Assembly (NCBI GenBank): GCA_027018935.1
Contig: JALUXZ010000070.1
Coordinates: 6,014-70,013 of the forward strand
DNA length: 64,000 nt
Origin: Mariprofundaceae bacterium
Lineage (GTDB): Bacteria; Pseudomonadota; Zetaproteobacteria; Mariprofundales; Mariprofundaceae
Direction: 5' to 3'
The first letter of the stretch is position 1, and every line of letters begins with the position of its first letter. This document shows positions 50,335-64,000 of the stretch, in pieces. The notes beneath the pieces are model-generated. The model was not told where the DNA came from. It saw nothing but the letters and a program-made list of their open reading frames with translations, and made no database searches. A program made the translations under genes and the position numbers.

Positions 50335-50350
50335 TGTGACTTATATCACA
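50335..50350. promoter_or_regulatory. CRP/Vfr-type operator candidate upstream of the pilin genes
   Basis: TGTGA-cttata-TCACA, with perfect half-sites at N6 spacing (extended palindrome agtgtga/tcacact). It lies 64 nt upstream of the pilin ATG and about 13 nt upstream of a TAGAAT -10-like hexamer at 50363-50368. Confidence 0.4.
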
Positions 50351-50413
50351 CTGCTTCATCGGTAGAATATATATTTTTATTAGGGCAGCAGCCCGTCAAA
50401 CTAGGGGATTAGA

Positions 50414-51202
50414 ATGAAAGATAGAACAGCGGGCGAAAAGGGTTTTACACTTATTGAAATGGCCATTGTACTGGTGGTAATTGGGCTTATTTTGGGAGCG
50501 GTATCTATTGGTAAGGATTTGCAGAGAAATGCTGAATATGACACTGTGAAACAGAAGTTTATCGATCAGTGGGCCACAGCATACAATATATATTATCAGC
50601 GTGTTGGGGTGGTATTGGGTGACTCTGAAGTTGCACCGCGCTTGATGGTTGCAGGCAGTGCATATGCAGCCCCGGTTGGTACCCCTATTTCTGGAGGAAA
50701 TATGGCGGTAGTACCCTCTCCTGGAGCAATCTGCCAAGGTCTAGCACCAGTAGGAATTACTCTCGCAACACCTTCAGCAACATTGTTTGCAGCTACTATG
50801 CATACATATTTTGATCAGACGGGCATAAGAATGCCTCCAGGTCGTGCAGAAGGCAGTGAAGATCGTTTTGCTTATCTGGACAGTAATGGTAACCCTCAAG
50901 AGATTCAGGTTTGCTTTAGGTGGAATGCTCCAGCTACACCAGAAGGTGCGGGAAATGTCATGTTGATTGCTGGATTAACGCCAGATTTGGCACGAGCTTT
51001 GGATCAAATGATCGATGGTAAGCCTGATGCTCAAGAGGGCATGTTTCGCCAGCTTGGTGTTGTGAATGGTGTTGCGGGAGGTCCTGGTATTTCTTGGAAT
51101 ACGAATAATACACAAGTTTTTGGTGCTGGTGCCGGCTCAGGGACAAACCTTGATGAAGATCAGGTTGTAACTGTTACTGCAGTCTACAAGATGAATCAAT
51201 AA
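50414..51202 (+). CDS. Large type IV pilin-like protein, paralogue 1 (262 aa)
   Basis: Prepilin signal MKDRTAGEKG/FTLIEMAIVLVVIGLILGAV with Gly-1, Phe+1 and Glu+5. Two conserved Cys. Ends ...VYKMNQ. Confidence 0.85.
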   Translation: MKDRTAGEKGFTLIEMAIVLVVIGLILGAVSIGKDLQRNAEYDTVKQKFIDQWATAYNIYYQRVGVVLGDSEVAPRLMVAGSAYAAPVGTPISGGNMAVVPSPGAICQGLAPVGITLATPSATLFAATMHTYFDQTGIRMPPGRAEGSEDRFAYLDSNGNPQEIQVCFRWNAPATPEGAGNVMLIAGLTPDLARALDQMIDGKPDAQEGMFRQLGVVNGVAGGPGISWNTNNTQVFGAGAGSGTNLDEDQVVTVTAVYKMNQ

Positions 51203-51207
51203 GGGAG

Positions 51208-52023
51208 ATGATTATGTTTAAGCAAAAAGGAAAGCTGGCAAAAGGCTTTACGCTTATAGAAATGGCGATTGTTTTGGTTGTGATCGGGTTGATTCTTGGT
51301 GCAGTATCGATTGGTAAAGATTTACAGAGAACGGCGGAGTTTGATGTTATTAAACAGAAATTCGTTGATCAATGGGCTCAAGCTTATAATCAATATTACA
51401 CACGGGTAGGTGTGGTAGTGGGTGATTCTCAAGTTGCCCCTGTGTATATGGTTGATGGAAATAGTGTGACTTTGAACACGCCATTGGCGGCAAGGCTTCC
51501 TGTTAACATGGCGAATACGGGTTTGCGTATTTGTGAAGGTCAAGGTTATGGCGCGAACTCAGTGGGTACTGGAGACCCTGGTTTGTCGGCACAAAGCCTA
51601 TTTGCGTTGTTTGATCGCCAGGGAATTCGTATGCCTCCAGGGCGTGCAGAAGGGTCAGAAGATCGTTATAACTACTTAGATTCAAATGGTAACCCCGCTG
51701 AGTTACAGGTTTGCTTCCAATGGAATGTTGACGGAACCAATAGTGGTTCAGGCAATGTTATGGTTATTCGTGGCTTAACGCCAGATTTGGCTCGTGCTCT
51801 TGATCAGATGATTGATGGTAAGCCTGATGCTCGAGAAGGTATGTTCAGGCAGCAAGATGTTGCTTTGAATACTACTGGAACTAGCCAGGTTCCTGGTAGT
51901 GAGTGGGCTGCTAATAATACGTATCGTCAGAATGGCACCGTACCAACGGCGGTTGGAACGGGTAATAATCAAGATGAAAACAGAGTTGTACTGTTGACTG
52001 CTCATTATAAGATGAATCAATAA
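51208..52023 (+). CDS. Large type IV pilin-like protein, paralogue 2 (271 aa)
   Basis: GKLAKG/FTLIEMAIVLVVIGLILGAV. It shares IRMPPGRAEGSEDR, VCF.WN and GLTPDLARALDQMIDGKPDA.EGMFRQ blocks with paralogue 1. gggaga RBS. Confidence 0.85.
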   Translation: MIMFKQKGKLAKGFTLIEMAIVLVVIGLILGAVSIGKDLQRTAEFDVIKQKFVDQWAQAYNQYYTRVGVVVGDSQVAPVYMVDGNSVTLNTPLAARLPVNMANTGLRICEGQGYGANSVGTGDPGLSAQSLFALFDRQGIRMPPGRAEGSEDRYNYLDSNGNPAELQVCFQWNVDGTNSGSGNVMVIRGLTPDLARALDQMIDGKPDAREGMFRQQDVALNTTGTSQVPGSEWAANNTYRQNGTVPTAVGTGNNQDENRVVLLTAHYKMNQ

Positions 52024-52053: not shown

Positions 52054-52533
52054 ATGGATAAGCGGGTAACTTTGGTCACCGTGTTGGCAGTGATTGGTTT
52101 TCCAATTGCTATTTACAGCGCAGTAACCGCATACCACCACCGTGCAGACGCGAGGATGCAGTTGCAAGTTTTGCAGCAGCATGATGTGCGAATGGAAGAA
52201 ATTAGAAGAGAATCGGCTATGTTTAAGCAGTATCAGGAGCGCTCTCATGCATTTCTTGATGCTGCTAAGGCTGAAGGTATTGTGAGTGAATCGTGGGATC
52301 GGCGACGTTTTGATGTCGAGAATCGCATTGTTAGTTATCGAGATTTGAGTGATTATATACGCAAAGCTAATCATGATGCGAATTATTACTTTATTCCTGA
52401 ACGGCTTGATTTAAAAACACCTGAAAAAGCTCTGGAAGACAATGCTTCGGGGTCGATTTTTCAGTATTATGACCGTTCAAAGCCTGTCTTGGCTTTAACG
52501 ATGCAGGGTGAGCTATTGGTGAAAGTTTTATGA
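52054..52533 (+). CDS. Bitopic membrane protein, PilO/GspM-like assembly component candidate
   Basis: N-terminal TM helix (VTLVTVLAVIGFPIAIYSAV), a coiled coil and a small alpha/beta C-domain. Assigned by position in the pilus locus. Confidence 0.35.
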   Translation: MDKRVTLVTVLAVIGFPIAIYSAVTAYHHRADARMQLQVLQQHDVRMEEIRRESAMFKQYQERSHAFLDAAKAEGIVSESWDRRRFDVENRIVSYRDLSDYIRKANHDANYYFIPERLDLKTPEKALEDNASGSIFQYYDRSKPVLALTMQGELLVKVL

Positions 52534-53852
52534 ACCTAAATGACTTTGATTCTGTAATTCTTGATTTAGATGGTTCAATTATTGCTTTTGATGGCAGCGA
52601 ATATACTCGAGTAAATGAGCTTGCTGAAGTGCAAGGTCATAAAATTATCATGACGGACTATCAAGGCGCGACACCGTTTGCGATGATGATTAATGCGCCT
52701 GAGAAATATGTTGGACCTGTTATTGAGAAAAAACTGTTGGAAGAAGGCGTGATAGAAGGTGCTAGTAAGATACTTATTCATGCCACTCGCTCTTATGGAC
52801 CAGCTTTAACACATGTTTTTTTCACGGCTGTGCCAGCTGATGTGTATGCGGATTATGATAGAAGCGAAGAGCGAGATGACGATCACCATTTAGTTTGCTC
52901 TCTCAATGCGGCACTTTATGCGCAGTTAAAAGGTCTGAAAGCGGGTGTCGTTGTTGCAGGTTTGTTTGTGCATGGCAGGCATGTGGATATTCTTGTTATG
53001 GGGGATGATTGTATACATGCAGCTCGGCGCATTACTGTTTTTGGTGGTCATGATGAACATGCATTAAGACGTGATAATATTGTTGCAGTTTTACGTGCAA
53101 TCGAGCGGGAAGCTCGCATTACTATAGAATATATATATGTGAATTATCATTGCCATGAAAGTGAAGGGTCTATTGCTAGCAGCTTGTCTGAATCAATGCA
53201 GGTTGATTGCAAAGATGCTGCTTTAGAGCATTACATGCTTGATGGAGAGGCATATATGTCGTCGTCTATGGCAATGATTGCTGCTCTAAACGTGAAAGAT
53301 TTGAGTGCAAACATGAAAAGGAGCCTGTGCTATCTAAGCTGGAAAGCTTTGCCGCTGGCGGCATCAATTGTTTTCGGGTTTGCTCTCGCATTGTTTGCGA
53401 TAGCGATGGTTTGGCAGAGTGAAACAAACACCTTGAATGCAGAAGCAGTTAAGATGCAGGAGTCTTTTGAACAAGATAAGGCATCCTTGAAAAGCTTAAA
53501 AGTCATACATGATATTCCAGATTTTCAAAGTTCGCTGGTGTTGGCTGAAGACATGGCGAGAGCTCAGATGATGCCATCGATGCAAGAAGTATTGAGTGAT
53601 CTTTCGTATGCTTCCAAACAGTCAGTATTGCTTGATCATATATCTTTAATTTATGGATCAGAGAATGTTCGTATACAAGTATCTGGCAAAATAAAAGCCT
53701 CATTTGCTGAGGGTATTGAATCGTATAGTTACCTTATTTCTGCGATGCAGAGTATGGGCTATGTTTTGATTGAGAAGAATATAGGCATGGATATGAAGGT
53801 TAATACGTTCATGGTGATAATGGAGAAAGACTTTGTTAAGAAACAAGTATAA
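52530..53852 (+). CDS. MshI-like fusion (PilM-like cytoplasmic domain, TM helix, PilN/O-like periplasmic domain) candidate
   Basis: A start resembling an actin-like phosphate-1 loop (VILDLDGSIIAF), a single TM helix near residue 275 (LPLAASIVFGFALALFAIAMVW), then a coiled coil and a ferredoxin-like end. Confidence 0.45.
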   Translation: MNLNDFDSVILDLDGSIIAFDGSEYTRVNELAEVQGHKIIMTDYQGATPFAMMINAPEKYVGPVIEKKLLEEGVIEGASKILIHATRSYGPALTHVFFTAVPADVYADYDRSEERDDDHHLVCSLNAALYAQLKGLKAGVVVAGLFVHGRHVDILVMGDDCIHAARRITVFGGHDEHALRRDNIVAVLRAIEREARITIEYIYVNYHCHESEGSIASSLSESMQVDCKDAALEHYMLDGEAYMSSSMAMIAALNVKDLSANMKRSLCYLSWKALPLAASIVFGFALALFAIAMVWQSETNTLNAEAVKMQESFEQDKASLKSLKVIHDIPDFQSSLVLAEDMARAQMMPSMQEVLSDLSYASKQSVLLDHISLIYGSENVRIQVSGKIKASFAEGIESYSYLISAMQSMGYVLIEKNIGMDMKVNTFMVIMEKDFVKKQV

Positions 53853-54324
53853 GGGTCTGTTATCGTTCGCGATGCTTGGTGTGAGCTTGGGTGTTGGGGC
53901 TTTGATATATTCGCATGGACGGAGTATTGATGCGGCAATATCTGGTTATCAGCCGCGCATTGATAATCCTTTATCGGGTGAAAAGTTTGACCAACTAGAG
54001 TTCGTTATGCTTGGAGAGCTGATTAATAAAATGGATAAGTTGCCGTATCCACCTGTTGTTAAATCGAGAGACGTTCGATTTGCAATTTTAGACGACAAAG
54101 CAAATAAGAAAATTGTTAAAATGAGAAATTTTGTCCGAGTTAAACCTTTTAATTATAAAGTGTCTATGGTGTTTATTTCTGAGGAACAACGCTATGCGGT
54201 AGTTTCTGGAGGGTTTGTGCATGTGGGTGAGCACCTGCGAGATGGTGCTCTTGTAGAAGCTATTCAAAAAGGGAAAGTTAAAATATCTCGCTCAGATGGT
54301 AGTCGTTGGATTAAAGTGAGATAG
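53833..54324 (+). CDS. PilP/MshK-like periplasmic assembly protein candidate
   Basis: N-terminal anchor. The C-terminal beta-domain YKVSMVFISEEQRYAVVSGGFVHVGEHLRDGALVEAIQKGKVKI resembles the PilP / GspC-HR fold pattern. TTG start is uncertain. Confidence 0.4.
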   Translation: MLRNKYKGLLSFAMLGVSLGVGALIYSHGRSIDAAISGYQPRIDNPLSGEKFDQLEFVMLGELINKMDKLPYPPVVKSRDVRFAILDDKANKKIVKMRNFVRVKPFNYKVSMVFISEEQRYAVVSGGFVHVGEHLRDGALVEAIQKGKVKISRSDGSRWIKVR

Positions 54325-54394
54325 TCAGATGCGAGGCGCGAATTGATGAGGGAAGATCTTATTTTATCTTAAAATATGTTTGGGGGGTAGTGTT

Positions 54395-55012
54395 GTGAGT
54401 GTACGAATGATTTTGTTGATCGGCACGATTGCAGTTTTTTCATTTATAGGTATTTATTTTTTGTCGGATATGGGCTATGAGGTGAATATTCGCAAGGTGG
54501 AATCGGATCAGTCTGCCGTACAGGGTCAAGTCTCGAGCCAGCCGTTGTCCAAGCCAGTGGTGCCAGCGCAACCTGTTTTTCAAGTGCCACAGAAGCCAAA
54601 CCATACAATTAATTCTCCCGTGGCTAAAGGTCAGGTAAATGCACAGCCAGATTTACAAAAGCATTTGCAAGAATTGCATTCGATTCAGTTGGAGATGACG
54701 CAACTTAATGGGCGTGATGGGAAAATTAATATTGCAAAGCTTGAGGGTGCGATAGATAAGTTTGCAAGTTTAGGGGAACGGGCACCAGAGTTGGGTATTG
54801 GTAAGGTCATAAATGCAGGGAAGCTTAAGGAATTGGTTGGCTCGCTACGTGGTATGGAAAAGTTGCAAGTTGAAATACAAGAAATATCAAAAGATCCAGA
54901 ACACATTGATATGGAAAAGATGAGTGCCAAACTGGCTGAATTACAGTCACTGCAGGCTGAAATGATGAAAACATTACCTTACATAAGGCCGAATCTGCCA
55001 TATGCCCAATGA
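54395..55012 (+). CDS. Bitopic membrane protein with a Pro/Gln-rich linker and coiled coil (unknown function)
   Basis: TM helix ILLIGTIAVFSFIGIYFL, then PVVPAQPVFQVPQKP, then repeated L.EL.S.Q.EM heptads. GTG 54395 follows tgggggg. The track start is TTG 54380. Confidence 0.35.
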   Translation: MSVRMILLIGTIAVFSFIGIYFLSDMGYEVNIRKVESDQSAVQGQVSSQPLSKPVVPAQPVFQVPQKPNHTINSPVAKGQVNAQPDLQKHLQELHSIQLEMTQLNGRDGKINIAKLEGAIDKFASLGERAPELGIGKVINAGKLKELVGSLRGMEKLQVEIQEISKDPEHIDMEKMSAKLAELQSLQAEMMKTLPYIRPNLPYAQ

Positions 55013-55782
55013 TTAAGAGGGTAGAGGGTGGTTTTAGTTTGCTGGAGCTGTCTGTAGTTTTGGTCGTAATGGGGTCAGTTTTATCCATTGCAACATTTTC
55101 CTATGGGTATGTTTTGAGGAAGGTAGACCAAGCGAAAACAGCCCGCAGTATGGATGAGGTTCAAAATGCTTTATTGACCTTCGTGATAACCAACCATCGC
55201 CTTCCCTGTGCAGATACGGATGGTAATGGTTACGAAGGTACTGGTTTGCCAGCAAGCTGTTTGTCAGCGCAAAGTGACAAGGCTGGTGGATTACCTTTTA
55301 AAACATTGTTTTTAGATTCTGAGCCGTTTGATGCGGCGCATCATAAATTTCGCTATGGCGTTTATCGAAATAGTGCTAGTTCAGCTGATTTGGCAACGAA
55401 TACTGAACGTACAGGAGATGCCGCAACTACGGAAAGGTTTCAGAATCTGGATGATTTTATTCAGGCTTTGCGTAATGCACAGGGGGTGAGCCCTTTATTA
55501 GCGACGCAGGTGTTTGTTACAGGTGATGGGGTTAGTAGTGGAGCGATACAGTGCGCCACTAACATTGTAGCGAATGTTGCTTATGTTTTGATAAGTGGTG
55601 GGGATGATGATTTAGATGGGTTAAATGGATATTTGGATGGGGCGAATGGGGCATTTGGTGGGGCGGTGACATGTTCGGAGTCGCCTTTTCGTGTTTCATC
55701 TGGATTGTATGATGATCAGGTTATGGTTGAAAGTTTTGTGGGTTTAACAGGTAAACTCCTAAAGTTGCCAAAAAGGCTTTGA
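55009..55782 (+). CDS. Minor pilin-like protein (prepilin N-terminus, Cys-containing)
   Basis: MIKRVEGG/FSLLELSVVLVVMG. The NHRLPCADTDGNG...C and RYGVYRN blocks are shared with the ORF starting at 63166. Confidence 0.7.
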   Translation: MIKRVEGGFSLLELSVVLVVMGSVLSIATFSYGYVLRKVDQAKTARSMDEVQNALLTFVITNHRLPCADTDGNGYEGTGLPASCLSAQSDKAGGLPFKTLFLDSEPFDAAHHKFRYGVYRNSASSADLATNTERTGDAATTERFQNLDDFIQALRNAQGVSPLLATQVFVTGDGVSSGAIQCATNIVANVAYVLISGGDDDLDGLNGYLDGANGAFGGAVTCSESPFRVSSGLYDDQVMVESFVGLTGKLLKLPKRL

Positions 55783-55809: not shown

Positions 55810-57564
55810 ATGAATATTGTACGAATAACAGGCGTAATCATATTGATGGCTTTAACGAGTTGCCAAGGCGCGCACAAAATCCCTGAAGCAGCTGAAAATA
55901 GTCATTATAATGAGCAGTTGAAGAAGGATCAGCGAGCTCAAACTGATGCTTTGCACCAAAACCTTGTTGAAAACAATCAAAATTTTTATCGCATGCAAGA
56001 TAAACTTCGGGCTGATATCGAGAAAATAAGCACGCCACCGCAAGTTTTTGTTCCAGTCATTCCCACTTATAATCCATTGGACAATGTGAGGGTTACGATA
56101 GATATTGATAACGGCGATGTTCAGTTTGTTTTGCAAGCTTTGGCTCGTCAGGCAGGGATGAATTTGTTGCTGCATCCAAATTTATCTAGCTCAAAGCGGA
56201 AGATTAGTTTGCACTTTTTTGATGTGGAGGCATCAAGAGTGTTTGAAGAAGTGCTTCGTATTACGGATCTTCATGGTGAAGTGAAAGGCAATATGCTGGT
56301 TGTTAATCCTTACGAAGAAAAGATTTTGTCAGTTAACTTCATTGAGACTTCTGTGGTTGGTGATTTCTCATCAGGTGGTGACGTGCTTGGTTCTGGGCAA
56401 GCCACGGGTTCTGGGAGTTCTGGAGGCTCTGGGGGTTCTGGAAATTCGAGTAGTGGTGGTAGTAGCTTAACAGGGAACTTTAGAATCACGGGTAGCAGCG
56501 CGCCTAACTCAAATGCCTATGATCAACTGGAAAGTATGTTGAAGCGTATGGTTGGTAATCATGACAATTCAGCATCAAGTGGTGTTATATCTGCCAGTTC
56601 ACTGCGAGAAGTCGGCGTTAAATCAATGCTGCAAAGTGCTAAGCAGGTTGAAACTGCGAAATACGTGTTAAACAGACGTGCAGGAACGCTATATATTCAG
56701 GCTAAACCGTCAGTTGTGAATGCAGTTAGTAAGATTGTTGAACGCTATCGTGAAGTCTTGGCTAGACAGATATTAATCGAGACACAAATTTTAGAAGTAA
56801 GTTTGAATGATAAATACCAGTATGGTATTGATTGGGCAAATTTCAGAGGTCGGTTTGCAACCAGTTATGCTGGAGCCCAGCAGCTGTCACCAGTTTCGGG
56901 AACTTTGCCTAATTTGATTCCAGGAGCAGCTGGGGTGACTATTCCTATGGGTGGTCTTGGTGTTCTTGGACGGGCATTAGGCATATCGTATGCGGATGGA
57001 GGTCTTGGCGTTAGTGTAAGTCTTTTAAAAGGCTATGGTGATGTCCATGTTCTATCTAATCCGACAATAAGGGCGATGAATTCGCAGCCATCATTAATCA
57101 GTGTTGGCAGAACCAATACGTACATTGCCAAGACCTCAGTGACAACGGCAACGGCAGTGACAACGACAGGTGTTGTGTCATCAGATGTGACTGTAAACTC
57201 TGTTTTTAATGGTTTGATTTTAGGCGTGATTCCGTCGATTGCAGATAGTGGTGAAATTACTTTGTCTATTCATCCGATTCAAAGTGAGGTTGATCAAAAT
57301 AGTATTGATACGCTTATTGATGTTGGCGGTAATAGCAAAATTACTTTGCCACGCGTTGATATTAAAGAGATTAGTACCACTATTAAGTTGAATGATGGCG
57401 ATACAGTGATTCTTGGTGGTTTGATTGATAAGTCTAAAACATCGAGTAATGAGGGTGTCCCATTTCTTTCAGAGATTCCTGTTCTTGGGAATTTATTTAA
57501 ATCTAAGCGTGGTTCAACAGCAGTCCGTGAGATGGTTATTGTGATGAGAGTTCATCTATTGTGA
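55810..57564 (+). CDS. Lipoprotein secretin (MshL/PilQ-like)
   Basis: Lipobox LMALTS-C. A 26-aa Gly/Ser linker. Secretin core VLSNPTIRAMNSQPSLISVG ... GVPFLSEIPVLGNLFKS. Confidence 0.9.
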   Translation: MNIVRITGVIILMALTSCQGAHKIPEAAENSHYNEQLKKDQRAQTDALHQNLVENNQNFYRMQDKLRADIEKISTPPQVFVPVIPTYNPLDNVRVTIDIDNGDVQFVLQALARQAGMNLLLHPNLSSSKRKISLHFFDVEASRVFEEVLRITDLHGEVKGNMLVVNPYEEKILSVNFIETSVVGDFSSGGDVLGSGQATGSGSSGGSGGSGNSSSGGSSLTGNFRITGSSAPNSNAYDQLESMLKRMVGNHDNSASSGVISASSLREVGVKSMLQSAKQVETAKYVLNRRAGTLYIQAKPSVVNAVSKIVERYREVLARQILIETQILEVSLNDKYQYGIDWANFRGRFATSYAGAQQLSPVSGTLPNLIPGAAGVTIPMGGLGVLGRALGISYADGGLGVSVSLLKGYGDVHVLSNPTIRAMNSQPSLISVGRTNTYIAKTSVTTATAVTTTGVVSSDVTVNSVFNGLILGVIPSIADSGEITLSIHPIQSEVDQNSIDTLIDVGGNSKITLPRVDIKEISTTIKLNDGDTVILGGLIDKSKTSSNEGVPFLSEIPVLGNLFKSKRGSTAVREMVIVMRVHLL

Positions 57565-58514
57565 GTGTTATTTTTGATGCATTGCGTGAATTAGACCATG
57601 AAAAACCGAGTGGTTCGCGCGAAGGCTTTGCTGAGGTTAGTGATGCTAAAGACAGGCATGGCTTCTCAGCTTGGGCTCGAAGGGGGTTGTTGCTTCTGGC
57701 GCTTGGAGTTACGAGTGTTATAGGCTTTTCTGTGTGGAATAATTACAGCAAACAGCTGAAAGAAGTTGCTGCAGAAAAGAATATTCAGACTGAAATTACA
57801 CGACGAGTTGATTTTAAAAGCATGCCTCAAGACACTGCTGTGACGAAGCCTGTGACTGCAGATGCCTTGGAGAAACCAATATTGATAGGGGGGCGTGCGG
57901 ACGAACGAGTTGTGACCGTTAAAGGTGAAAAATTGTCGCAGTTAAAGACAGAGGCTACGGTACAGTCCACCAAACAGCCGTCTATGAAGCAGGGAGTTAC
58001 TACTTCCCAGCCTGTGAGCGTAGCTGTTTCAAATCAGCCAAGGACGTATGCTGTAAAGCAAACTTCTGCTGCATCAGCTAATCAGGTGGTAGTAAAAGCA
58101 AGGCAGACCCCTGCTGTTAGGCAGGGAAAGAGTTCTTTTCAAATGCAATATAATATATCGCAATTGATACCTCGTCTGAAGCTAGCTATGGCACAAAAAA
58201 ATGAAGCCTTGGTGGCTAAATATCTTGATGAATTGGCTGAAATGAGCGGCGATGAAAGTGTTTTTGTTAATAAAATGCGTGCATATTGGGCTTTAAGTAA
58301 TGGGCATTTTGATGAAGCGTTTTCACGTTATCAGAGTATTATTGCTCAGAACCCAAATGATATTGAAAGCCAAATGAATGCAGCGTCGGCAGAAATGCAG
58401 TTGAAGCACTTTGAGAATGCTTATAAGAGACTTGTTATGTTGGCAGGTAAGCATCCTAATGATGCGCGAGTTAGCTCGATGCTTGATCGGTTGAAGGCGA
58501 TATATCCATTATGA
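57561..58514 (+). CDS. Bitopic TPR protein (MshN-like position)
   Basis: One TM helix (LLLLALGVTSVIGFSVW), a Ser/Thr/Gln-rich spacer and C-terminal TPR-like helices (YWALSNGHFDEAFSRYQSIIAQNPND). GTG start. Confidence 0.55.
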   Translation: MSVIFDALRELDHEKPSGSREGFAEVSDAKDRHGFSAWARRGLLLLALGVTSVIGFSVWNNYSKQLKEVAAEKNIQTEITRRVDFKSMPQDTAVTKPVTADALEKPILIGGRADERVVTVKGEKLSQLKTEATVQSTKQPSMKQGVTTSQPVSVAVSNQPRTYAVKQTSAASANQVVVKARQTPAVRQGKSSFQMQYNISQLIPRLKLAMAQKNEALVAKYLDELAEMSGDESVFVNKMRAYWALSNGHFDEAFSRYQSIIAQNPNDIESQMNAASAEMQLKHFENAYKRLVMLAGKHPNDARVSSMLDRLKAIYPL

Positions 58515-60184
58515 GTTCGCATGAATATTTGTCGCGATTGGGCCTGGATAGTAACCCATTCCCAGTTGTTCCAGACGCGAGCAATTATTATTTGCCAGAG
58601 CACCTTAATACTATCCTGCTCGAAATTATCCATGTGATCGATACTCGAAAGGGTTTTGCTGTTGTAATCGGTGATATAGGTCTGGGTAAAACGACCATGA
58701 CGCGCGTGTTGATGGGGAGGTTACATGATTTAGGGATGTCTACCTCATTGGTTTTTAATACGATCAATCAAGGTGAGATGCTGCTTGCTGAGATTAATAA
58801 AGATTTTGGAATTAAAGTATCTGGTGAGGGGCTAGCCGCTCAAATGAATGCGCTCAATATGCACCTTCTGGCGTGTTATGAGAAAGGTGAAAATTGTGCA
58901 ATTGTTATTGATGATGCGCAGCATTTGACAGTGGATAGCCTTGAATTGATTCGTCAAATATCCAATTTGGAAACAGATCATGAGAAAATAGTTCAAATTC
59001 TTCTCGTGGGTCAACCAGAATTGAATGAGAAACTTCAACAGCATGGGTTAAGGCAATTAAAAAGTCGTATTGTTTATCAAGCTACGGTGCGGTTATATAG
59101 CCAGGAAGAGACTCAGCATTATGTAAATTTTAAATTAAATGCTGCAGGCAATAAAGGCTTAATTCAAATTCCAGCATCATCTATACGCGTTTTACAACGC
59201 ATAAGTGGCGGTAGTCCGCGCTTAATCAATGCTATGATGGATCGTTACTTATATGGATTGGTGGCTTGTCGCTGCAAGAAGCTGAATGGCAAGCAATTTA
59301 GGGCAATAGCCTTGGAATCGGGGCTTTTTGCGGTGCCGAATAAATACGCGTTAAGCTCTTGGCTGGGTTGGGGGGCTGGGTCTGTATTGGTTGCGATTGC
59401 AGCGTCACTATTATTTTTTGGAAACACCCAGAAAAACAATAGTTTTTCTGTCGCAGAATTGATTCCTGCGTTTACTGGTAGGGCGAATACTGCGGAGTTA
59501 TTTAAGGCGGATACGAAGTTAAATTCGGAAGGGGACGAGCCGATAAAAGTGCCCGCAGAAGAAGCTGTAGTTAGTATGAAACATCAATTGTCATCTAAGA
59601 GTGACATTGAGGTTGATGGGAGCTCTGAAGAAGCCTTGTCTATTAAAGATCCGTTGCTATCACAGTTTTTAAATGACTACGATTATGCTGCACATCAAAA
59701 GCTCTTCATTACGGCGATTAGTCAGGGAATGCCAGACTCAGAGGTTAAGAAAATAAACAAGCTTGGCGAGTTGAAGCTTATTATATTGCCCAATGTTAGC
59801 GAAAAACTACGCCAACAATTTTCAATTTATACCATGGCACCCACAGAGTTAAGCAGTATGAAATATTTATTTCTGTGGAACCCAAGCTTGGTATTGGAAG
59901 GTTTCTATTTTGGTTATCAGTCAGATTCCGTAAAACAATTGCAGCAGAGGCTTTCGGCATTGAATTTTTATACGGATGTGGTTGATGGTGTTGTGGGCAT
60001 CAAAACAATGTCCGCAGTTGCACGTTTTCAAGCTGCTCATAAATTAATGCCTACAGGTCAGCCTGATAATGCAATGTTATTTTTGCTAGATCAGGAAAAC
60101 CAGCAGGTACATGCTGAGAATTTAACGATGAATATTACAGGTCAATTAAAAGTATTGAATATAGGTGTAGTCAGCTATGGATGA
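58511..60184 (+). CDS. ExeA/MshM-like AAA+ ATPase with a C-terminal peptidoglycan-binding domain
   Basis: Walker A GDIGLGKTT, Walker B AIVIDDAQHL, a TM helix (GAGSVLVAIAASLLFF) and a PG_binding_1-like end LQQRLSALNFYTDVVDGVVGIKTMSAVARFQ. Confidence 0.8.
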   Translation: MSSHEYLSRLGLDSNPFPVVPDASNYYLPEHLNTILLEIIHVIDTRKGFAVVIGDIGLGKTTMTRVLMGRLHDLGMSTSLVFNTINQGEMLLAEINKDFGIKVSGEGLAAQMNALNMHLLACYEKGENCAIVIDDAQHLTVDSLELIRQISNLETDHEKIVQILLVGQPELNEKLQQHGLRQLKSRIVYQATVRLYSQEETQHYVNFKLNAAGNKGLIQIPASSIRVLQRISGGSPRLINAMMDRYLYGLVACRCKKLNGKQFRAIALESGLFAVPNKYALSSWLGWGAGSVLVAIAASLLFFGNTQKNNSFSVAELIPAFTGRANTAELFKADTKLNSEGDEPIKVPAEEAVVSMKHQLSSKSDIEVDGSSEEALSIKDPLLSQFLNDYDYAAHQKLFITAISQGMPDSEVKKINKLGELKLIILPNVSEKLRQQFSIYTMAPTELSSMKYLFLWNPSLVLEGFYFGYQSDSVKQLQQRLSALNFYTDVVDGVVGIKTMSAVARFQAAHKLMPTGQPDNAMLFLLDQENQQVHAENLTMNITGQLKVLNIGVVSYG

Positions 60185-61928
60185 AAAGCAATGGATACCA
60201 AAAGAGGATACACTTTCTGCAACTGTTGTGACTCGCCTCACAGCGCATGAACGAGACCGTTTAAAAACAATGGCAGGAAAAGCCCACCAAAGTATTGGTG
60301 TGCTTCTCAAAGAACAAGGTATGGTTAATGAGGAACAAATTAATTATGCTTTGCAGAAGCAAAGAGTTACAGGAGAACGTTTAGGAGAATTATTCGAGCG
60401 TTTAGGTTTTGTTAGCGGTTATGATGTTGCGAGGATGTTGGCAGATCAAGAAGCCTTGGATTTTGTTGATGTTCGCCAAATTGTTCCACAAGAAGATGCG
60501 TTGCAACTTTTTAATATGAAACAATGTTTGGTTGAGCATTTTTTACCTATTCGCCGGGATGGGGATGAACTTGAGGTGGTTTGTGCAAGCACCAACCTTG
60601 CACATTTACGTCAAATTGTCCTATCTCGATGTGGTTTACGCCCACGCTTTACTTACGGGCAGCGTTCTGAAATTCATCAAACTATCCGTCAATATTATTT
60701 CTTCCTTGAAAATCCATTAGAAAGCTTACTAGAGAAGGAAATTACGCTTGCAACGAGTGATGTTGAGATGGTTCGCAGTCTCGATACCTTATTAGACCAC
60801 TTGTTGCATTTAGCTGTGAAGTATAGAGCAACAGATATTCATATTCAGCCTGAAGAGAAAAGTATTCACGTATCATTTCGTATTGATGGCGTATTAAGAC
60901 CAATACTTTGTATGGATAGGTGTTTGAAGCGTTTGGTTTCAACGATAAAAATGAAATCAGGGATTGATATTGCTGAGCAACGATTGCCGCAAGATGGTAG
61001 TTTTACTGAAAATATACTTGATCATACTTATGATTTGCGTGTTTCTACTGTTGTTGGCATGCATGGTGAAGCGGCTGTAATGCGTATTTTAAAACGCGAT
61101 AATGCTGTTAAAGGCTTTGCAGAGTTAGGCTTTGCTGATGTGGATAGAGTTTTATTGAATCGCATGTTTTCCCAGCCATCGGGAATGATTTTACTTACAG
61201 GTCCAACGGGATCGGGCAAAACGACATCACTTTATGCAGGACTTCGATCCATGAATTTATTGCAAAAGAATGTACTGACGATTGAAAACCCTGTCGAATA
61301 CCAAATTCCTATGGCAACTCAAACGGAAGTGAATCGTCGTTCAGGTTACAGTTTTGAACATGCAATTATGCATTTTTTACGACATGATCCTGATGTTATG
61401 CTAGTTGGGGAAATACGTAATATTGAAACTGCAACGACAGCCGTAACGGCAGCGGAGACAGGACACCTAGTATTATCGACACTGCATGTAAATAGTGCAT
61501 ACGGGGTTATCCCACGATTAATATCATTGGGTGTATCGCCACATTTGTTGGCAGATTCTTTGGTGGGCATCATCAATCAGCGCTTAGTTCGGACTATTTG
61601 TGGCAGCTGTAAAACTCAATATACAGCGAGTAAAGAAGAGCAGGCTTACTTGGGTGATGATAGTATTGAAACGTTACAGCGTGGCGTAGGTTGTGAAACA
61701 TGCCGTGGTACTGGTTATGTGGGGCGTATGCCCATTTATGAGGCAATAGGCATGGCAAAAGGTATGCCCGAAATGATTGTTGATGGCAAAAGTAGAAGTG
61801 CATTTGAGGCTCTGGCTGAAAAGAATGGTTTTAAATCAATTTTTTCAATGGCCGTTGAACAAGTGGCAAAAGGTTTTGTATCTGTTGATGAGATAAAACG
61901 CGTTTTGGGCGATGACCTAAGACGATGA
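60177..61928 (+). CDS. MshE/PilB/GspE-family assembly ATPase with an MshEN-type N-terminal domain
   Basis: Walker A GPTGSGKTT, Walker B LVGEIRN and a CGSC...CETC motif. The N-terminus carries two tandem 24-aa MshEN-like motifs. Confidence 0.9.
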   Translation: MDEKQWIPKEDTLSATVVTRLTAHERDRLKTMAGKAHQSIGVLLKEQGMVNEEQINYALQKQRVTGERLGELFERLGFVSGYDVARMLADQEALDFVDVRQIVPQEDALQLFNMKQCLVEHFLPIRRDGDELEVVCASTNLAHLRQIVLSRCGLRPRFTYGQRSEIHQTIRQYYFFLENPLESLLEKEITLATSDVEMVRSLDTLLDHLLHLAVKYRATDIHIQPEEKSIHVSFRIDGVLRPILCMDRCLKRLVSTIKMKSGIDIAEQRLPQDGSFTENILDHTYDLRVSTVVGMHGEAAVMRILKRDNAVKGFAELGFADVDRVLLNRMFSQPSGMILLTGPTGSGKTTSLYAGLRSMNLLQKNVLTIENPVEYQIPMATQTEVNRRSGYSFEHAIMHFLRHDPDVMLVGEIRNIETATTAVTAAETGHLVLSTLHVNSAYGVIPRLISLGVSPHLLADSLVGIINQRLVRTICGSCKTQYTASKEEQAYLGDDSIETLQRGVGCETCRGTGYVGRMPIYEAIGMAKGMPEMIVDGKSRSAFEALAEKNGFKSIFSMAVEQVAKGFVSVDEIKRVLGDDLRR

Positions 61929-63166
61929 ATTACTTTGTTTTTAAACTTCTACAGGATGATGGTCGACTTTTTCGGGGAATTATCATGCGACCTCACGGCA
62001 ATATTGCTTCGGCTCGAGTATACCTTGAGCAGCGGTATGATATGCCAGTTTTATCATTGTGGCGGATGCCATTATTTCTTAAAGAAATGTATGTTTTTTT
62101 TACGCGCATGTTTAGGAAACCTGTTAAGACTGCGGATGTCTCGGAATTTTTACGCAATCTTTCAGTGATGTTGAGAAGTGGTATACCTGTGATGGAGGCA
62201 TTGAATGACGCGGCAGATGATTCTAAAGGATCCCCTCTTCAGTCGGTGACAGAGGATATATATCTGGGCATTGAGTCTGGCATGTCTTTGTCTATGGGGA
62301 TGGCTCGACATCCAGACATTTTTCCCAACACCGTTCTTTTTTTAGCTCGTATTGGTGAAACATCAGGTTGTTTAGACCGGACGTTAATGGATGCGGCAAA
62401 ACACTTGGAGCGTTTGCGTAATATGCAGCGAGATACAAAACGTGCCTTGATTTATCCAGTTTTTGTTTTTACGACCATTTTTTTTGCAGCTGCATTTTGG
62501 ATGGTTTACGTGGTTCCAGGCATGGCTGATTTATTTCATTCGATGAGCGCAACTTTACCGCCCTTAACATTAACATTGATTTGGTTGTCTGAATTTCTAC
62601 AAGAAAATCTTTTTATGATTATGGTGGTATTGGTATGTTTTATTTTATTTATTATTTATCAGATACGAAATCATTATAAATCGCGTTTAGTTTTTCAACG
62701 TATATTGATGCGCATACCAGTGAGTAAGGGGTTGATTGAGTCGTCATCGCAGGCCTATCTTTCTGAGTATTTAAGCCTTTTGATTGCTTCGGGTATTGAT
62801 ATTTTGAGTAGCTTGGAAATTTTAGAAGGTGCCATGAGCAATGAAGTGTATAAGCTAAAAGTTGCAGCCATGCGTAATGGAGTTATCAAAGGACATTCAC
62901 TTGAACGCACATTTCGTAATGCAAATATTTTCCCCAAATTTGTTATTCGTATGATTGCGGTGGGGGAGCAAAGCGGAACGCTTACAGAACAGTTGGATTA
63001 TATTGCAACAGAATATCGTTTACGTTTGGAGCACACAATTCAATCATTGGCAGAGACATTGAAGCCAGCTGTGATTATTGTTGCGGGCATTTTGTTTGGA
63101 GTTATTATTGCAGGCTTATTTTTGCCTGTTTATCAATTAATTGGACAAGTGGGGACATTGCGATAA
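61925..63166 (+). CDS. PilC/MshG/GspF-family platform protein
   Basis: 413 aa, duplicated T2SSF-type domain, three TM helices, coupled to the ATPase gene. Confidence 0.9.
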   Translation: MNYFVFKLLQDDGRLFRGIIMRPHGNIASARVYLEQRYDMPVLSLWRMPLFLKEMYVFFTRMFRKPVKTADVSEFLRNLSVMLRSGIPVMEALNDAADDSKGSPLQSVTEDIYLGIESGMSLSMGMARHPDIFPNTVLFLARIGETSGCLDRTLMDAAKHLERLRNMQRDTKRALIYPVFVFTTIFFAAAFWMVYVVPGMADLFHSMSATLPPLTLTLIWLSEFLQENLFMIMVVLVCFILFIIYQIRNHYKSRLVFQRILMRIPVSKGLIESSSQAYLSEYLSLLIASGIDILSSLEILEGAMSNEVYKLKVAAMRNGVIKGHSLERTFRNANIFPKFVIRMIAVGEQSGTLTEQLDYIATEYRLRLEHTIQSLAETLKPAVIIVAGILFGVIIAGLFLPVYQLIGQVGTLR

Positions 63167-64000
63167 TGCACTCTATTCAGGTTAAAAAGACTCATCATGA
63201 TGCTGGGTTTAGCTTAATTGATATGTCAATTTTGATGGTGTTGATTGGTGGCTTAATCGTCATTGCCATCGGCATTGTGCCTCAATACTTGCAAAAAAAA
63301 TCTTTAGAAGAGAGTAAACAAGCCATCGCTAAGGCAGACCTTGCCGTGCGAGGTTTTGCAGTAAGTCATGGTCGCTTGCCTTGCCCTGCTACCAATGCAG
63401 GGGGCTTTGAAGACTGTACGGTAAGTGTGGGCACACTTCCGTGGAAGACGCTGGACTTAGCATCGGCAAGCAAGGATTCTCAATTTACCAGTCTACGTTA
63501 TGGCGTTTATAACAATGCTGCTGCGAATGCTAACTTAACGGTGCTTCAAAATGATTTTGTTCCTGCAGTGCCTAGCACTGTGACGACTCCAGTTAATTTG
63601 AATGGTTTGGATTTTTGTCAAAGTCTCAAAAATGCTGCAGGAGCGGCTTTTTCAGTGGCATCTGTGAATACAGGTTTGGGGGCATCACAGCGGAATGTTG
63701 CTTATGCTTTAGCTGCATCGGGTTTTGCCAATGCAGATGCGCTTGGTACTGCCTTTGACGGTTTGAATGGAGGGGCAACGCTTGCATTCGGGCAGGTTAA
63801 TCAGGTGCGTTCGCAAAATTATGATGATTTAGTTTTAGTTAGAGATTTTAATACATTATACGACAGCTTGGCATGTGGGCATGTGATTGATTCGTTATCA
63901 GTGATGTCTGAGATTGTGGATTTTTCGGACGTTGTACTTGGCAATGCAATTGAAGCTAGAGATAATCTTATTTTTTCAGTGGTTTTGGATACGATTGGTG
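63166..64000 (+). CDS. Minor pilin-like protein, paralogue of 55009-55782; 3' end outside the window (not in the ORF track)
   Basis: My own translation from ATG 63166 (taATG overlap) has no stop to the window end. It reads MHSIQVKKTHHDAG/FSLIDMSILMVLIGG ... SHGRLPCPATNAGGFEDC ... LRYGVYNN. Position +5 is Asp rather than Glu. Confidence 0.7.
   Translation, partial: MHSIQVKKTHHDAGFSLIDMSILMVLIGGLIVIAIGIVPQYLQKKSLEESKQAIAKADLAVRGFAVSHGRLPCPATNAGGFEDCTVSVGTLPWKTLDLASASKDSQFTSLRYGVYNNAAANANLTVLQNDFVPAVPSTVTTPVNLNGLDFCQSLKNAAGAAFSVASVNTGLGASQRNVAYALAASGFANADALGTAFDGLNGGATLAFGQVNQVRSQNYDDLVLVRDFNTLYDSLACGHVIDSLSVMSEIVDFSDVVLGNAIEARDNLIFSVVLDTIG

What the first reader, a model, noticed from the sequence alone, without database searches (positions are those of the whole stretch)
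50335..64000. Non-canonical MSHA/T2SS-hybrid type IV filament system (the main candidate for a new system)
**Gene order:** pilinA1, pilinA2, PilO-like, MshI-like (PilM-N fusion), PilP-like, a 210-aa coiled-coil protein, minor pilin, lipoprotein secretin, TPR protein, ExeA-like ATPase, MshE-like ATPase, PilC-like platform, then a further minor pilin that continues past the window.

It resembles the Vibrio msh locus (I-J-K-L-M-N-E-G, then pilins) but differs in these ways:
- Giant tandem pilins lead the operon.
- The TPR and AAA genes are swapped (L-N-M).
- The AAA protein carries a peptidoglycan-binding domain, like T2SS ExeA rather than MshM.
- There is an extra coiled-coil bitopic protein.
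- The minor pilins form their own family with an RLPC...C motif. One has Asp instead of Glu at +5.
- No prepilin peptidase and no PilT-type retraction ATPase occur in the 13.6 kb seen.

It directly abuts a complete T2SS. Both machines must therefore share a peptidase encoded elsewhere.
Basis: partly seen in the sequence, partly recalled or inferred. Interest (0 to 1): 0.75.

Follow-up and report, generated by a model that had tools for sequence, protein, structure and literature searches.

The report
Rearranged MSHA-like pilus gene cluster
This is a real and complete gene cluster for a type IV pilus-like machine, related to the cholera MSHA pilus but belonging to a distinct, widespread and so far unstudied branch with an unusually large and unusually conserved pilin.

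Summary
The locus runs about 7.4 kb past the window end. It continues with three more RLPC pilins, a third large pilin and a 1308-aa surface protein.

It is not a one-off. The same order occurs in Thiomicrorhabdus immobilis, Pseudomonas sp. GWSMS-1, Methylobacter sp. G7, Rhodoferax ferrireducens and several metagenome contigs.

It is MSH-related:
- The secretin passes NCBI's MshL equivalog cutoff and is sister to reference MshL (91% bootstrap).
- The TPR protein is an MshN homolog.
- The AAA domain is MshM/ExeA-like.
- The ATPase carries the MshEN c-di-GMP module.

It does not nest in the reference MSH group I could assemble. The ATPase and platform form their own 100%-supported clade that never joins MshE/MshG in my NJ trees.

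T2SS-like traits are real: an ExeA/GspA architecture and a GspB-type domain in the family of the 163-aa protein.

The lack of a peptidase and of PilT is normal for MSH loci, and the neighbouring T2SS is not a conserved feature.

Two features stand out. The ~260-aa pilin is the most conserved component. Three minor pilins carry ~130-aa alanine-rich hydrophobic tails.

Verdict: new variant of a known kind. Function is untested.

The parts
50107..50134 (+). Promoter-like site (TTGGAA-16-TATAAT) in the 380-bp gap upstream of the first pilin
   Evidence: It is a consensus match only, and the number of such matches in the region is not above the shuffled expectation.
50414..51202 (+). Large major-type prepilin A1 (262 aa; G|FTLIEM, Glu+5)
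   Evidence: N_methyl and TIGR02532 hits. The search returned 1539 proteins at E<=0.001; the best 120 listed are mostly 60-67% identical over nearly the full length, across classes. Invariant motifs are shown in alignment A4.
51208..52023 (+). Large prepilin A2 (271 aa), a paralog of A1 (62% identical)
52054..52533 (+). 159-aa bitopic protein (N-terminal TM). It sits where a PilO/GspM/MshJ-type assembly protein would be expected.
   Evidence: Conserved in position in L003, L004, L088, L091, L171 and L172. No family hit.
52530..53852 (+). 440-aa PilM-like actin-fold cytoplasmic domain, then a TM/long helix, then a ferredoxin-like periplasmic domain (MshI/GspL-type fusion)
   Evidence: AF2 pLDDT 91.7. 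Foldseek top hits are PilM 5eox (E 1.6e-8), FtsA and GspL-cyto 4pht_Y. The family has 264 50%-identity cluster representatives.
53833..54324 (+). 163-aa bitopic protein of a GspB/PilP-type (secretin-binding HR-like) family
   Evidence: 5 of 9 family members hit PF16537 T2SSB (best E 1.1e-6) and 2 hit T2SSC. The window's own member gives only a weak Y4YQ_C hit.
54380..55012 (+). 210-aa bitopic helical protein (start codon uncertain; a gene caller starts it at 54407). Variable accessory component.
   Evidence: A gene of similar size occupies this position in L003, L004, L091, L171 and L172, but only L091 is alignable (39%). It is absent in L088.
55009..55782 (+). RLPC-family minor prepilin without a tail (257 aa)
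   Evidence: N_methyl and TIGR02532 hits. Family alignment A6 has the invariant motifs RLP(C), G..E..C and YDD.V.
55810..57564 (+). MshL-type lipoprotein secretin (584 aa; lipobox LTSC)
   Evidence: TIGR02519 at 288.6 bits, above the 250.2 cutoff. PF00263 at E 6.5e-36. Sister to reference MshL in an NJ tree with 91% bootstrap.
57561..58514 (+). MshN-like bitopic TPR protein (317 aa)
   Evidence: TPR_19 hit. hhalign against MshN gives probability 93.7%, E 1.8e-7, aligned from residue 1. It shares the N-terminal MS(V/L)I..AL..LD motif.
58511..60184 (+). GspA/ExeA-architecture protein: MshM/ExeA-type AAA domain, then a TM, then a periplasmic PG_binding_1 domain (557 aa)
   Evidence: AAA_22 at E 7e-19 and PF01471 at E 2e-13. 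It is 33% identical to Aeromonas MshM and 35% to Aeromonas ExeA.
60177..61928 (+). Assembly ATPase with an N-terminal MshEN (tandem 24-residue c-di-GMP motif) module (583 aa)
   Evidence: PF00437 at E 4e-106 and PF05157. NF053729 at 51.5 bits, above the cutoff of 38. It falls in its own clade with 100% bootstrap.
61925..63166 (+). PilC/GspF/MshG-type platform protein (413 aa)
   Evidence: PF00482 at E 4e-50. It scores 147 bits to Aeromonas MshG against 98 bits to the window's own GspF.
63166..64000 (+). RLPC-family prepilin-like protein with Asp at +5. It is cut by the window end; the full length is 396 aa with a ~130-aa Ala-rich hydrophobic C-terminal tail.

Best explanation
**What it is.** The locus encodes one complete type IV filament machine of a distinct, widespread branch related to the MSHA (MSH) pilus.

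**Proposed mechanism (inferred from the families; nothing was tested experimentally).**
1. Seven prepilins are cleaved by a prepilin peptidase encoded elsewhere. They are three ~240-270-aa major-type paralogs and four RLPC minor pilins.
2. The MshE-like ATPase polymerises the large pilin on the PilC-type platform. The ATPase is probably switched on by c-di-GMP through its MshEN module.
3. An inner-membrane assembly complex links the motor to a self-piloting MshL-type lipoprotein secretin. The complex comprises a PilM-PilN-type fusion, a 159-aa bitopic protein and a GspB/PilP-type protein.
4. The ExeA-like AAA protein binds peptidoglycan. Together with the MshN-like TPR protein it helps the secretin assemble through the cell wall, as ExeAB does for ExeD.
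5. The three tailed RLPC pilins most likely form the initiating tip complex.

**Most likely output.** A surface pilus used for c-di-GMP-controlled attachment.
For: **Components shown by family or structure searches.**
- Pilins, secretin, TPR, AAA+PG, ATPase and platform.
- MshL equivalog passed.
- MshEN/c-di-GMP domain passed, and the tandem motif is visible in the sequence.
- The 440-aa protein has a PilM-like fold.
- The 163-aa family carries a GspB-type domain.
- The TPR protein is homologous to MshN.
- The AAA domain is 33-35% identical to MshM and ExeA.

**Phylogeny and synteny.**
- The secretin is sister to MshL at 91% bootstrap.
- The gene order is conserved in Thiomicrorhabdus, Pseudomonas, Methylobacter, Rhodoferax, L088 and L091.
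- No peptidase occurs in any of 15 related loci, matching the rule for MSH loci (PMC6668835).

**Published support for the inferred steps.**
- Three minor pilins followed by a ~1300-aa protein mirror mshD-O-P-Q of V. cholerae (PMC13533445).

**Context.** The locus sits beside an EPS cluster and a LapD/LapG c-di-GMP adhesion switch.
Against: - No experiment exists for any member of this branch that I could find.
- The major pilin is the most conserved component. It is 57-64% identical between classes, against 48-50% for the ATPase and 43% for GspG in the same genome pair. This is the opposite of exposed adhesive pilins and resembles secretion pseudopilins.
- The first half of the MshEN motif lacks the Arg of RLG in this genome (SIG).
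- The ~90-residue strongly hydrophobic stretches in the RLPC tails are hard to reconcile with extraction into a fibre.
- The pilin fold could not be modelled (pLDDT 60.6).
Confidence: 0.55

Rival explanations
1. It is a secretion machine rather than an adhesive pilus. The large conserved pilin would form a short periplasmic endopilus that pushes substrates or polymer through the MshL-type secretin. Possible cargo is the adjacent 1308-aa surface protein or exopolysaccharide. In this reading the locus is a second, MSH-derived T2SS-like system.
For: - The pilin is more conserved than the motor, and more than GspG in the same genome pair.
- GspA/ExeA architecture and a GspB-type domain family are present.
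- There is no retraction ATPase.
- The locus lies next to a T2SS here and in Thiomicrorhabdus and next to an EPS cluster.
- The N-terminal halves of the RLPC pilins hit GspG models.
Against: - There are no homologs of GspK, GspL or GspM.
- The ATPase is outside the GspE-type group.
- The secretin groups with MshL, not GspD.
- T2SS adjacency is not conserved.
- The 1308-aa protein is not conserved in L088.
- No substrate has been identified.
Confidence: 0.25
2. It is an ordinary MSHA locus whose genes have merely been shuffled. Function and components would match those of Vibrio and Aeromonas.
For: - The MshL equivalog is passed.
- MshN homology, an MshM-like AAA domain and an MshEN domain are present.
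- There is no peptidase and the system is a single locus, as for MSH (PMC6668835).
- Genome papers call such clusters MSH (PMC3770913, PMC10734482).
Against: - The ATPase, the platform and their concatenation never group with the reference MshE/MshG (0-19 of 100 bootstraps) and form their own 100% clade.
- There is no detectable homology to MshA-D, O, P, Q, J, K or F beyond the pilin N-terminus.
- The pilins are about 100 aa longer and belong to a family of their own.
- The AAA protein has an added TM and peptidoglycan-binding domain.
Confidence: 0.07
3. It is a separate, as yet unnamed family of type IV filament systems. The outer-membrane module (L-N-M) would be shared with, or recruited from, MSH. 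The motor, the pilins and the tip complex would be independent, with a function not yet seen in T4F systems.
For: - The motor forms its own 100% clade on a long stem.
- The pilin family is unique and hyper-conserved.
- The tailed RLPC pilins are conserved across distant members.
- The assembly proteins have no sequence-level link to MshI, J or K.
Against: - NJ trees with simple distances cannot resolve deep branches.
- The secretin, TPR and AAA parts are clearly MSH-family.
- The MSH clade of Denise et al. already includes Beta- and other Proteobacteria that may be this type.
Confidence: 0.13

Closest known systems
MSHA (MSH) type IV pilus system of Vibrio cholerae and Aeromonas (mshH-Q). The references used here are Aeromonas caviae L006, Legionella adelaidensis L089 and metagenome genome L020.
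   Same: - Lipoprotein MshL-type secretin.
- MshN-type TPR protein with the same N-terminal motif.
- MshM-type AAA domain.
- ATPase with an MshEN c-di-GMP module.
- PilM-N-type fusion protein.
- Single locus, with no prepilin peptidase and no dedicated retraction ATPase.
- Several minor pilins followed by a ~1300-aa protein.
   Different: - The order is pilins-(J?)-I-(K/B)-x-pilin-L-N-M-E-G-pilins instead of I-J-K-L-M-N-E-G-F-B-A-C-D-O-P-Q.
- The AAA protein carries a TM and a PG_binding_1 domain.
- The ATPase and platform form a separate clade.
- The pilins are about 260 aa and belong to a different, hyper-conserved family.
- The minor pilins are the RLPC family, three of them with Ala-rich tails.
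- No MshF, MshH or MshQ homologs are detected.
Type II secretion system accessory pair GspA/GspB (ExeA/ExeB of Aeromonas hydrophila)
   Same: - The 557-aa protein has the ExeA architecture: AAA domain, TM, periplasmic peptidoglycan-binding domain.
- Its AAA domain is 35% identical to Aeromonas ExeA.
- The 163-aa protein family carries the T2SSB (GspB) domain.
- The TPR protein starts with the same MS.L..AL motif as ExeB.
   Different: - The pair serves an MshL-type rather than a GspD-type secretin.
- GspB features are split between two proteins.
- The rest of the T2SS core (GspC, K, L, M and a GspE-clade ATPase) is absent from this locus.
Type IVa pilus (PilABCD, PilMNOPQ, PilT)
   Same: - Class III signal peptides.
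- A PilB-family ATPase with an N-terminal MshEN-type domain.
- A PilC-type platform.
- A PilM-like fold.
- A secretin.
   Different: - Single locus.
- PilM and PilN are fused.
- There is no PilT/PilU and no PilD.
- The secretin is of the MshL type.
- MshM/N-type accessory proteins are present.

Membership tests
MSH (MSHA-type) pilus system | MshL-type secretin | tested here: met
   TIGR02519 equivalog at 288.6 bits against a cutoff of 250.2. A lipobox is present. NJ places it as sister to the three reference MshL sequences with 91% bootstrap, and both groups are 100% supported.
MSH (MSHA-type) pilus system | MshE ATPase carrying the N-terminal c-di-GMP-binding MshEN domain | tested here: met
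   PF05157. NF053729 at 51.5 bits, above the cutoff of 38. The tandem 24-residue motif with a 5-residue linker is visible in the sequence, but the first RLG is SIG here. Binding itself was not tested.
MSH (MSHA-type) pilus system | ATPase and platform fall inside the MSH clade | tested here: not met
   NJ with 100 bootstraps: the X clade is 100% supported and the reference MSH group is 100% supported. X+MSH is recovered in 0/100 (ATPase), 19/100 (platform) and 0/100 (concatenated) replicates. Caveats: there are only 2-3 MSH references and the distance method is simple.
MSH (MSHA-type) pilus system | MshM (AAA) and MshN (TPR) accessory pair next to the secretin | tested here: met
   The AAA domain is 33% identical to Aeromonas MshM over 246 aa. 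hhalign of the TPR family against MshN gives probability 93.7%. The gene order is inverted, and the AAA protein has an extra TM and peptidoglycan-binding domain.
MSH (MSHA-type) pilus system | MshI/J/K assembly proteins | tested here: inconclusive
   The 440-aa protein has a PilM-like fold, a TM and a periplasmic domain. hhalign against MshI, I2, J and K is not significant; the best probability is 16.9%.
MSH (MSHA-type) pilus system | MshA-D, O, P pilins and MshQ | tested here: not met
   BLASTP against the Aeromonas locus finds only the N-terminal pilin helix. The 1308-aa protein has BNR/sortilin, Ig-like and JDVT-CTERM domains.
MSH (MSHA-type) pilus system | Single locus without a prepilin peptidase | tested here: met
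   There is no A24 peptidase in the window, in L001 or in the 15 related loci. The rule is stated in PMC6668835.
MSH (MSHA-type) pilus system | Classified as MSH by TXSScan/MacSyFinder | not testable with these tools
   The profiles are not available here. The model needs 3 of mshA, E, G, L and M (PMC6668835). L and M would very probably hit; E and G are uncertain.
Type II secretion system | Core GspC, D, E, F, G-K, L, M with a GspE-clade ATPase | tested here: not met
   There are no BLAST hits to the window's own GspK, L or M. The secretin and platform score higher to MshL and MshG than to GspD and GspF. The ATPase lies outside the GspE-type group.
Type II secretion system | GspA/ExeA: AAA domain, TM and peptidoglycan-binding domain | tested here: met
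   AAA_22 plus PF01471. It is 35% identical to Aeromonas ExeA over 248 aa, E 4e-40.
Type II secretion system | GspB (T2SSB domain) partner | tested here: inconclusive
   5 of 9 members of the 163-aa family hit PF16537 (best E 1.1e-6), but the window's own member does not.
Type IVa pilus | PilT retraction ATPase and separate PilM, N, O, P, Q genes | tested here: not met
   There is only one PilB-family ATPase in the locus. PilM-like and PilN-like parts are fused in one protein.

The most novel reading that the evidence does not exclude
This may be a separate, unnamed family of type IV filament machines spread through Zeta-, Gamma-, Beta- and Deltaproteobacteria and Magnetococcales. It would share only its outer-membrane and cell-wall module with MSH.

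Its hyper-conserved ~260-aa pilin, and its three tip pilins with ~130-aa alanine-rich hydrophobic tails, point to a job other than classical adhesion. Possibilities are a secretion endopilus, or a filament whose tip inserts into membranes or hydrophobic or mineral surfaces.
Probability: 0.25. Interest if true: 0.7.

Novelty: new variant of a known kind. Interest (0 to 1): 0.5.

Why it matters
Type IV filaments are usually sorted into T4aP, T4bP, Tad, Com, MSH and T2SS. This branch is common in environmental Proteobacteria: iron and sulfur oxidisers, methanotrophs, Comamonadaceae, sulfate reducers and magnetotactic bacteria. In the annotated records I saw its parts are named only generically, for example 'type II secretion system protein', 'GspE/PulE family' and in some cases 'TadA'.

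It joins MSH parts to ExeAB-type cell-wall parts. That makes it a natural test case for how secretins are inserted through peptidoglycan.

Its pilin behaves evolutionarily like a secretion pseudopilin, not like an exposed adhesin. The tailed minor pilins have no described counterpart that I could find.

Cultured hosts with complete or near-complete genomes carry the locus: Thiomicrorhabdus immobilis, Methylobacter sp. G7, Rhodoferax ferrireducens and Pseudomonas sp. GWSMS-1. The question 'pilus or secretion device?' is therefore directly testable.

Tried and rejected
1. **Genome-contig scan with an ATPase alignment.** It returned 80 generic PilB/GspE loci rather than orthologs. I used them only as outgroups.
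2. **AF2 model of the major pilin.** Mean pLDDT was 60.6, and Foldseek found nothing with E<=0.001. The pilin fold is unresolved.
3. **PDB sequence and profile searches for the pilins, the 440-aa family and the AAA+PG protein.** They found only the N-terminal pilin helix, or nothing.
4. **E. coli K-12 GspA as a comparator.** It is too degenerate to be useful. I replaced it with Aeromonas ExeA.
5. **Supplements of Denise et al. 2019.** I searched them to see how orthologous loci were classified. The stored trees and tables are truncated or lack species names. I learned only that their MSH clade includes Janthinobacterium, Leptothrix, Methylomonas denitrificans, Woeseia and Desulfurispirillum.
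6. **Literature searches for an experimental description of this variant.** I found none. There are only passing genome-paper remarks.
7. **Pfam and hhalign tests of the 159-aa protein as PilO/GspM/MshJ.** No signal.
8. **T2SS adjacency as a functional link.** I considered this and rejected it, because three of five named genomes lack it.

Full report
**1. What is in the sequence**

Thirteen ORFs lie head to tail on the + strand from 50414 to the window end, many with overlapping stop and start codons.

Family scans give the following:
- Two large prepilins of 262 and 271 aa (N_methyl/TIGR02532).
- Four proteins without curated family hits (159, 440, 163 and 210 aa).
- A 257-aa prepilin.
- A secretin that passes NCBI's MshL equivalog model (TIGR02519, 288.6 bits against a cutoff of 250.2).
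- A TPR protein.
- A 557-aa protein with AAA_22 (E 7e-19) and PG_binding_1 (E 2e-13).
- A PilB/GspE-family ATPase with MshEN and the 'MshE-related c-di-GMP motif' domain (NF053729, 51.5 bits against a cutoff of 38).
- A T2SSF platform.
- A further prepilin-like ORF cut by the window end.

The following can be read directly from the translations:
- The secretin lipobox (LTSC).
- The RLPC...C motif in every minor pilin.
- Asp at +5 in the last ORF.

A T2SS lies immediately upstream, with gspC-M at 37971-49098 and gspN on the other strand. Neither a prepilin peptidase nor a further PilB/PilT-type ATPase is found in the window.

**2. The locus continues beyond the window**

The same contig is held in public assemblies. 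L001 (ENA ERZ27262636) extends the locus by about 7.4 kb. In order it adds:
- The full 396-aa RLPC pilin.
- Two more RLPC pilins (403/384 aa and 412 aa).
- A third large pilin paralog (236 aa).
- A 1308-aa protein with BNR/sortilin-type propeller repeats, Ig-like domains, a choice-of-anchor U domain and a JDVT-CTERM sorting signal.
- A type I restriction-modification methylase gene, which marks the end of the locus.

Each of the three long RLPC pilins ends in a ~130-aa tail. The tail is 28-32% alanine, rich in Val, Gly and Leu, and almost free of charge. The tails contain stretches of up to about 90 residues with Kyte-Doolittle hydropathy above 1.6.

**3. It is a conserved, widespread system**

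- *Major pilin.* The search returned 1539 proteins at E<=0.001. The best 120 listed are mostly 60-67% identical to the query (four closer relatives reach 74-100%) and cover 94-100% of it. They come from Methylobacter, Thiomicrorhabdus, Pseudomonas sp. GWSMS-1, Rhodoferax ferrireducens, Hydrogenophaga, Xylophilus, Pseudomarimonas, Desulforhopalus, Marinicellaceae and others.
- *The 440-aa protein.* It has 264 relatives among 50%-identity cluster representatives.
- *Gene order.* The order is two large pilins, ~160 aa, ~430 aa, ~175 aa, ~200 aa, ~255-aa pilin, secretin, TPR, AAA+PG, ATPase. It recurs in these genomes:
  - Thiomicrorhabdus immobilis AP024202
  - Pseudomonas sp. GWSMS-1
  - Methylobacter sp. 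G7 CP159583
  - Rhodoferax ferrireducens
- *More distant members.*
  - A 4.4-Mb genome (L088) has three leading pilins and four downstream RLPC-type pilins, three of them with Ala-rich tails.
  - A metagenome contig (L091, platform 70% identical) has every gene of the window locus in order, including the three tailed pilins and the third large pilin.
  - Magnetofaba australis and several deltaproteobacterial-type contigs keep the core secretin-TPR-AAA/PG-ATPase-platform.
- *Closest named relatives.* They are Mariprofundaceae MAGs, so the host is probably a zetaproteobacterium.

**4. Relation to MSH**

I assembled three reference msh loci:
- Aeromonas caviae (L006), with the order I-I2-J-K-L-M-N-E-G-F followed by pilins.
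- Legionella adelaidensis (L089), whose secretin is annotated MshL.
- A gammaproteobacterial genome (L020).

The comparison with these references, component by component:

| Component | Result |
|---|---|
| Secretin | After its own orthologs (339-483 bits) the next best hits are the three MshL proteins (153, 147 and 119 bits); all other secretins score 100 or less. In an NJ tree the two groups are sisters (91% bootstrap; each group 100%). |
| TPR protein | Profile comparison with MshN gives probability 93.7%, E 1.8e-7, aligned from residue 1. Both families start with MS(V/L)I..(A/M)L..LD. |
| AAA domain | 33% identical to Aeromonas MshM and 35% to Aeromonas ExeA. |
| ATPase N-terminus | Same layout as MshE: two 24-residue motifs joined by a 5-residue linker. 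|
| ATPase, platform and their concatenation | Own 100%-supported clade on a long stem. Joins the reference MshE/MshG in 0, 19 and 0 of 100 bootstraps. Raw scores to MshE (276-280 bits) are lower than to many PilB proteins (295-330 bits). |
| Assembly proteins and pilins | No detectable sequence similarity to MshI, J, K, F, A-D, O, P or Q beyond the pilin N-terminal helix. |

The core genes therefore do not 'nest inside' the reference MSH group I could assemble. The outer-membrane and cell-wall module is nonetheless clearly of MSH ancestry.

My trees are neighbour-joining with a simple distance and few MSH references. Deep placement must be regarded as unresolved.

**5. T2SS-like traits**

- The 557-aa protein has the ExeA/GspA architecture: AAA domain, TM and a periplasmic PF01471 domain. 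Canonical MshM is about 295-300 aa and lacks these extras.
- In the family of the 163-aa protein, 5 of 9 members hit Pfam T2SSB, the GspB domain (best E 1.1e-6), and 2 hit T2SSC.
- ExeB of Aeromonas begins with MSTLLKALRRAD, which resembles the start of MshN and of the TPR protein here. This resemblance is weak (E 0.07) and is offered as a lead only.
[quoted passage not shown] I infer the same role here for the MshL-type secretin.

**6. The 440-aa protein**

With a 49-sequence alignment, AlphaFold gives pLDDT 91.7. The model has three parts:
- An N-terminal alpha/beta domain.
- A 60-residue helix that includes the TM segment.
- A C-terminal ferredoxin-like domain.

Foldseek against the PDB finds P. 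aeruginosa PilM (E about 1e-8), FtsA, M. xanthus PilM and the cytoplasmic domain of GspL. This supports the label 'PilM-N-type fusion, like MshI or GspL'.

**7. What is unusual**

(a) The major pilin is the most conserved part of the machine. Identity between the window and the gamma- or betaproteobacterial loci is as follows:

| Component | Identity |
|---|---|
| Major pilin (A1/A2) | 57-64% |
| ATPase | 48-50% |
| Secretin | 36-48% |
| Platform | 29-43% |
| 440-aa protein | 24-27% |

Between the window and Thiomicrorhabdus, the T2SS pseudopilin GspG is only 43% identical. The other components are far more diverged, so recent transfer of the whole locus cannot explain the pilin's conservation. 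The cause must be a constraint specific to the pilin.

From my own knowledge, exposed type IV major pilins are normally the most variable part of their systems, whereas T2SS pseudopilins are conserved.

Alignment A4 shows long invariant blocks:
- GIRMPPGRAEG.EDRY.YLD.NGNP.E.Q.CF.W
- GLTP.LAR.LDQ..DGK.DA.EG.FR
- a C-terminal YKMNQ

The resemblance of two of these blocks to the GspG calcium loop is recalled from memory and was not tested.

(b) The three tailed RLPC pilins are conserved as a set in distant members (L088, L091). Their tails end in a shared motif, (A/M/L)D..G. Their position is three minor pilins followed by a large protein. This parallels mshD-O-P-Q, which is proposed to form the tip initiation complex (PMC13533445).

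**8. What is not unusual**

[quoted passage not shown] None of 15 related loci here has a peptidase.
- T2SS adjacency occurs here and in Thiomicrorhabdus. It does not occur in Pseudomonas, Methylobacter or Rhodoferax, where two-component regulators sit upstream instead.
- Emerson et al. already noted that Sideroxydans ES-1 and Gallionella ES-2 carry MSH clusters with 'a significant gene rearrangement' relative to Vibrio and Pseudoalteromonas (PMC3770913). I could not check whether those clusters are this type.

**9. Mechanism and verdict**

The best-supported reading is a c-di-GMP-gated, MSH-related type IV filament machine. It relies on a peptidase encoded elsewhere and on an ExeAB-like device to place its secretin through the cell wall.

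Whether it makes a surface pilus for attachment (my preferred reading, 0.55) or works as a secretion endopilus (0.25) cannot be decided from sequence. The conserved pilin and the T2SS-type accessories argue for secretion. The MshL/MshE(N) parts, the many minor pilins and the biofilm-type neighbourhood (EPS cluster and LapD/LapG) argue for attachment.

I found no experimental work on any member.

I rate it a new variant of a known kind. It is real, widespread, poorly annotated and has two features worth a specialist's attention, but it is not a categorically new system.

Noticed in passing
L001:11242-14826 (window-equivalent 63166-66750); also L088:15053-20072 and L091:11242-14829: Three paralogous RLPC pilin-like proteins each end in a ~130-aa tail that is 24-32% alanine and nearly free of charge. 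The tails contain strongly hydrophobic stretches of up to about 90 residues and end in a shared (A/M/L)D..G motif. I found no described pilin with such a tail.
   Followed up: partly
window 50414-52023, compared with L003, L004, L088, L171 and L172: The ~260-aa major pilin is more conserved between proteobacterial classes (57-64%) than the ATPase of the same system (48-50%). It is also more conserved than the T2SS pseudopilin GspG in the same genome pair (43%).
   Followed up: yes
L001:15581-19507 (beyond the window): A 1308-aa protein with BNR/sortilin-type propeller repeats, three Bact_surface_Ig-like domains, a choice-of-anchor U domain and a JDVT-CTERM sorting signal closes the locus. It is not present in L088, so it may be lineage-specific cargo or an adhesin.
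   Followed up: partly
window 32719-35421: A LapG cysteine protease gene and a LapD c-di-GMP receptor gene (an adhesin-release switch) lie between the EPS cluster and the T2SS. No LapA-type substrate lies next to them. A 1298-aa NHL/Big_2 protein is at 17363-21259.
   Followed up: no
window 1-31284: A large polysaccharide biosynthesis and export cluster. It includes:
- dTDP-rhamnose genes
- glycosyltransferases
- a Wzy-like polymerase
- a flippase
- an EpsL/BBP2-type outer-membrane protein
- an EpsE/Wza-like exporter
- a Wzc-like tyrosine kinase

There are weak hits to PEP-CTERM/exosortase-associated models.
   Followed up: no
window 36010-37446 and 43457-44436: An O-antigen-ligase-like gene sits directly upstream of gspC. 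Two ORFs of 204 and 123 aa lie between gspF and gspG of the T2SS. The 204-aa ORF gave no NCBIfam hit at E<=1e-5; the 123-aa ORF was not scanned against any family library. The T2SS lacks gspO.
   Followed up: no
L003:6979-9639 and L171:6934-9602: In Thiomicrorhabdus and Methylobacter a 7TMR-DISM sensor kinase and an OmpR-type response regulator sit immediately upstream of the pilin genes. Pseudomonas and Rhodoferax have other two-component genes there. The window has none.
   Followed up: no
window 57561-57600; L006, L020 and L089 MshN; L173:3453-3490 ExeB: MshN, the TPR protein of this system and Aeromonas ExeB all begin with MS(V/L/T)(I/L)..(A/M)L(K/R)..(D). This may be a shared cytoplasmic peptide that docks onto the MshM/ExeA-type AAA domain.
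   Followed up: partly
L094:4672-5169 and L099:6264-6761: Deltaproteobacterial-type members of the clade carry an extra ~165-aa bitopic gene between the TPR and AAA genes. Their pilins are shorter (~211 aa) and only about 30% identical to those of the window.
   Followed up: no
whole window: GC skew is positive in every 2-kb bin (0.10-0.35) and nearly all long ORFs are on the + strand. This is consistent with a leading-strand segment.
   Followed up: no
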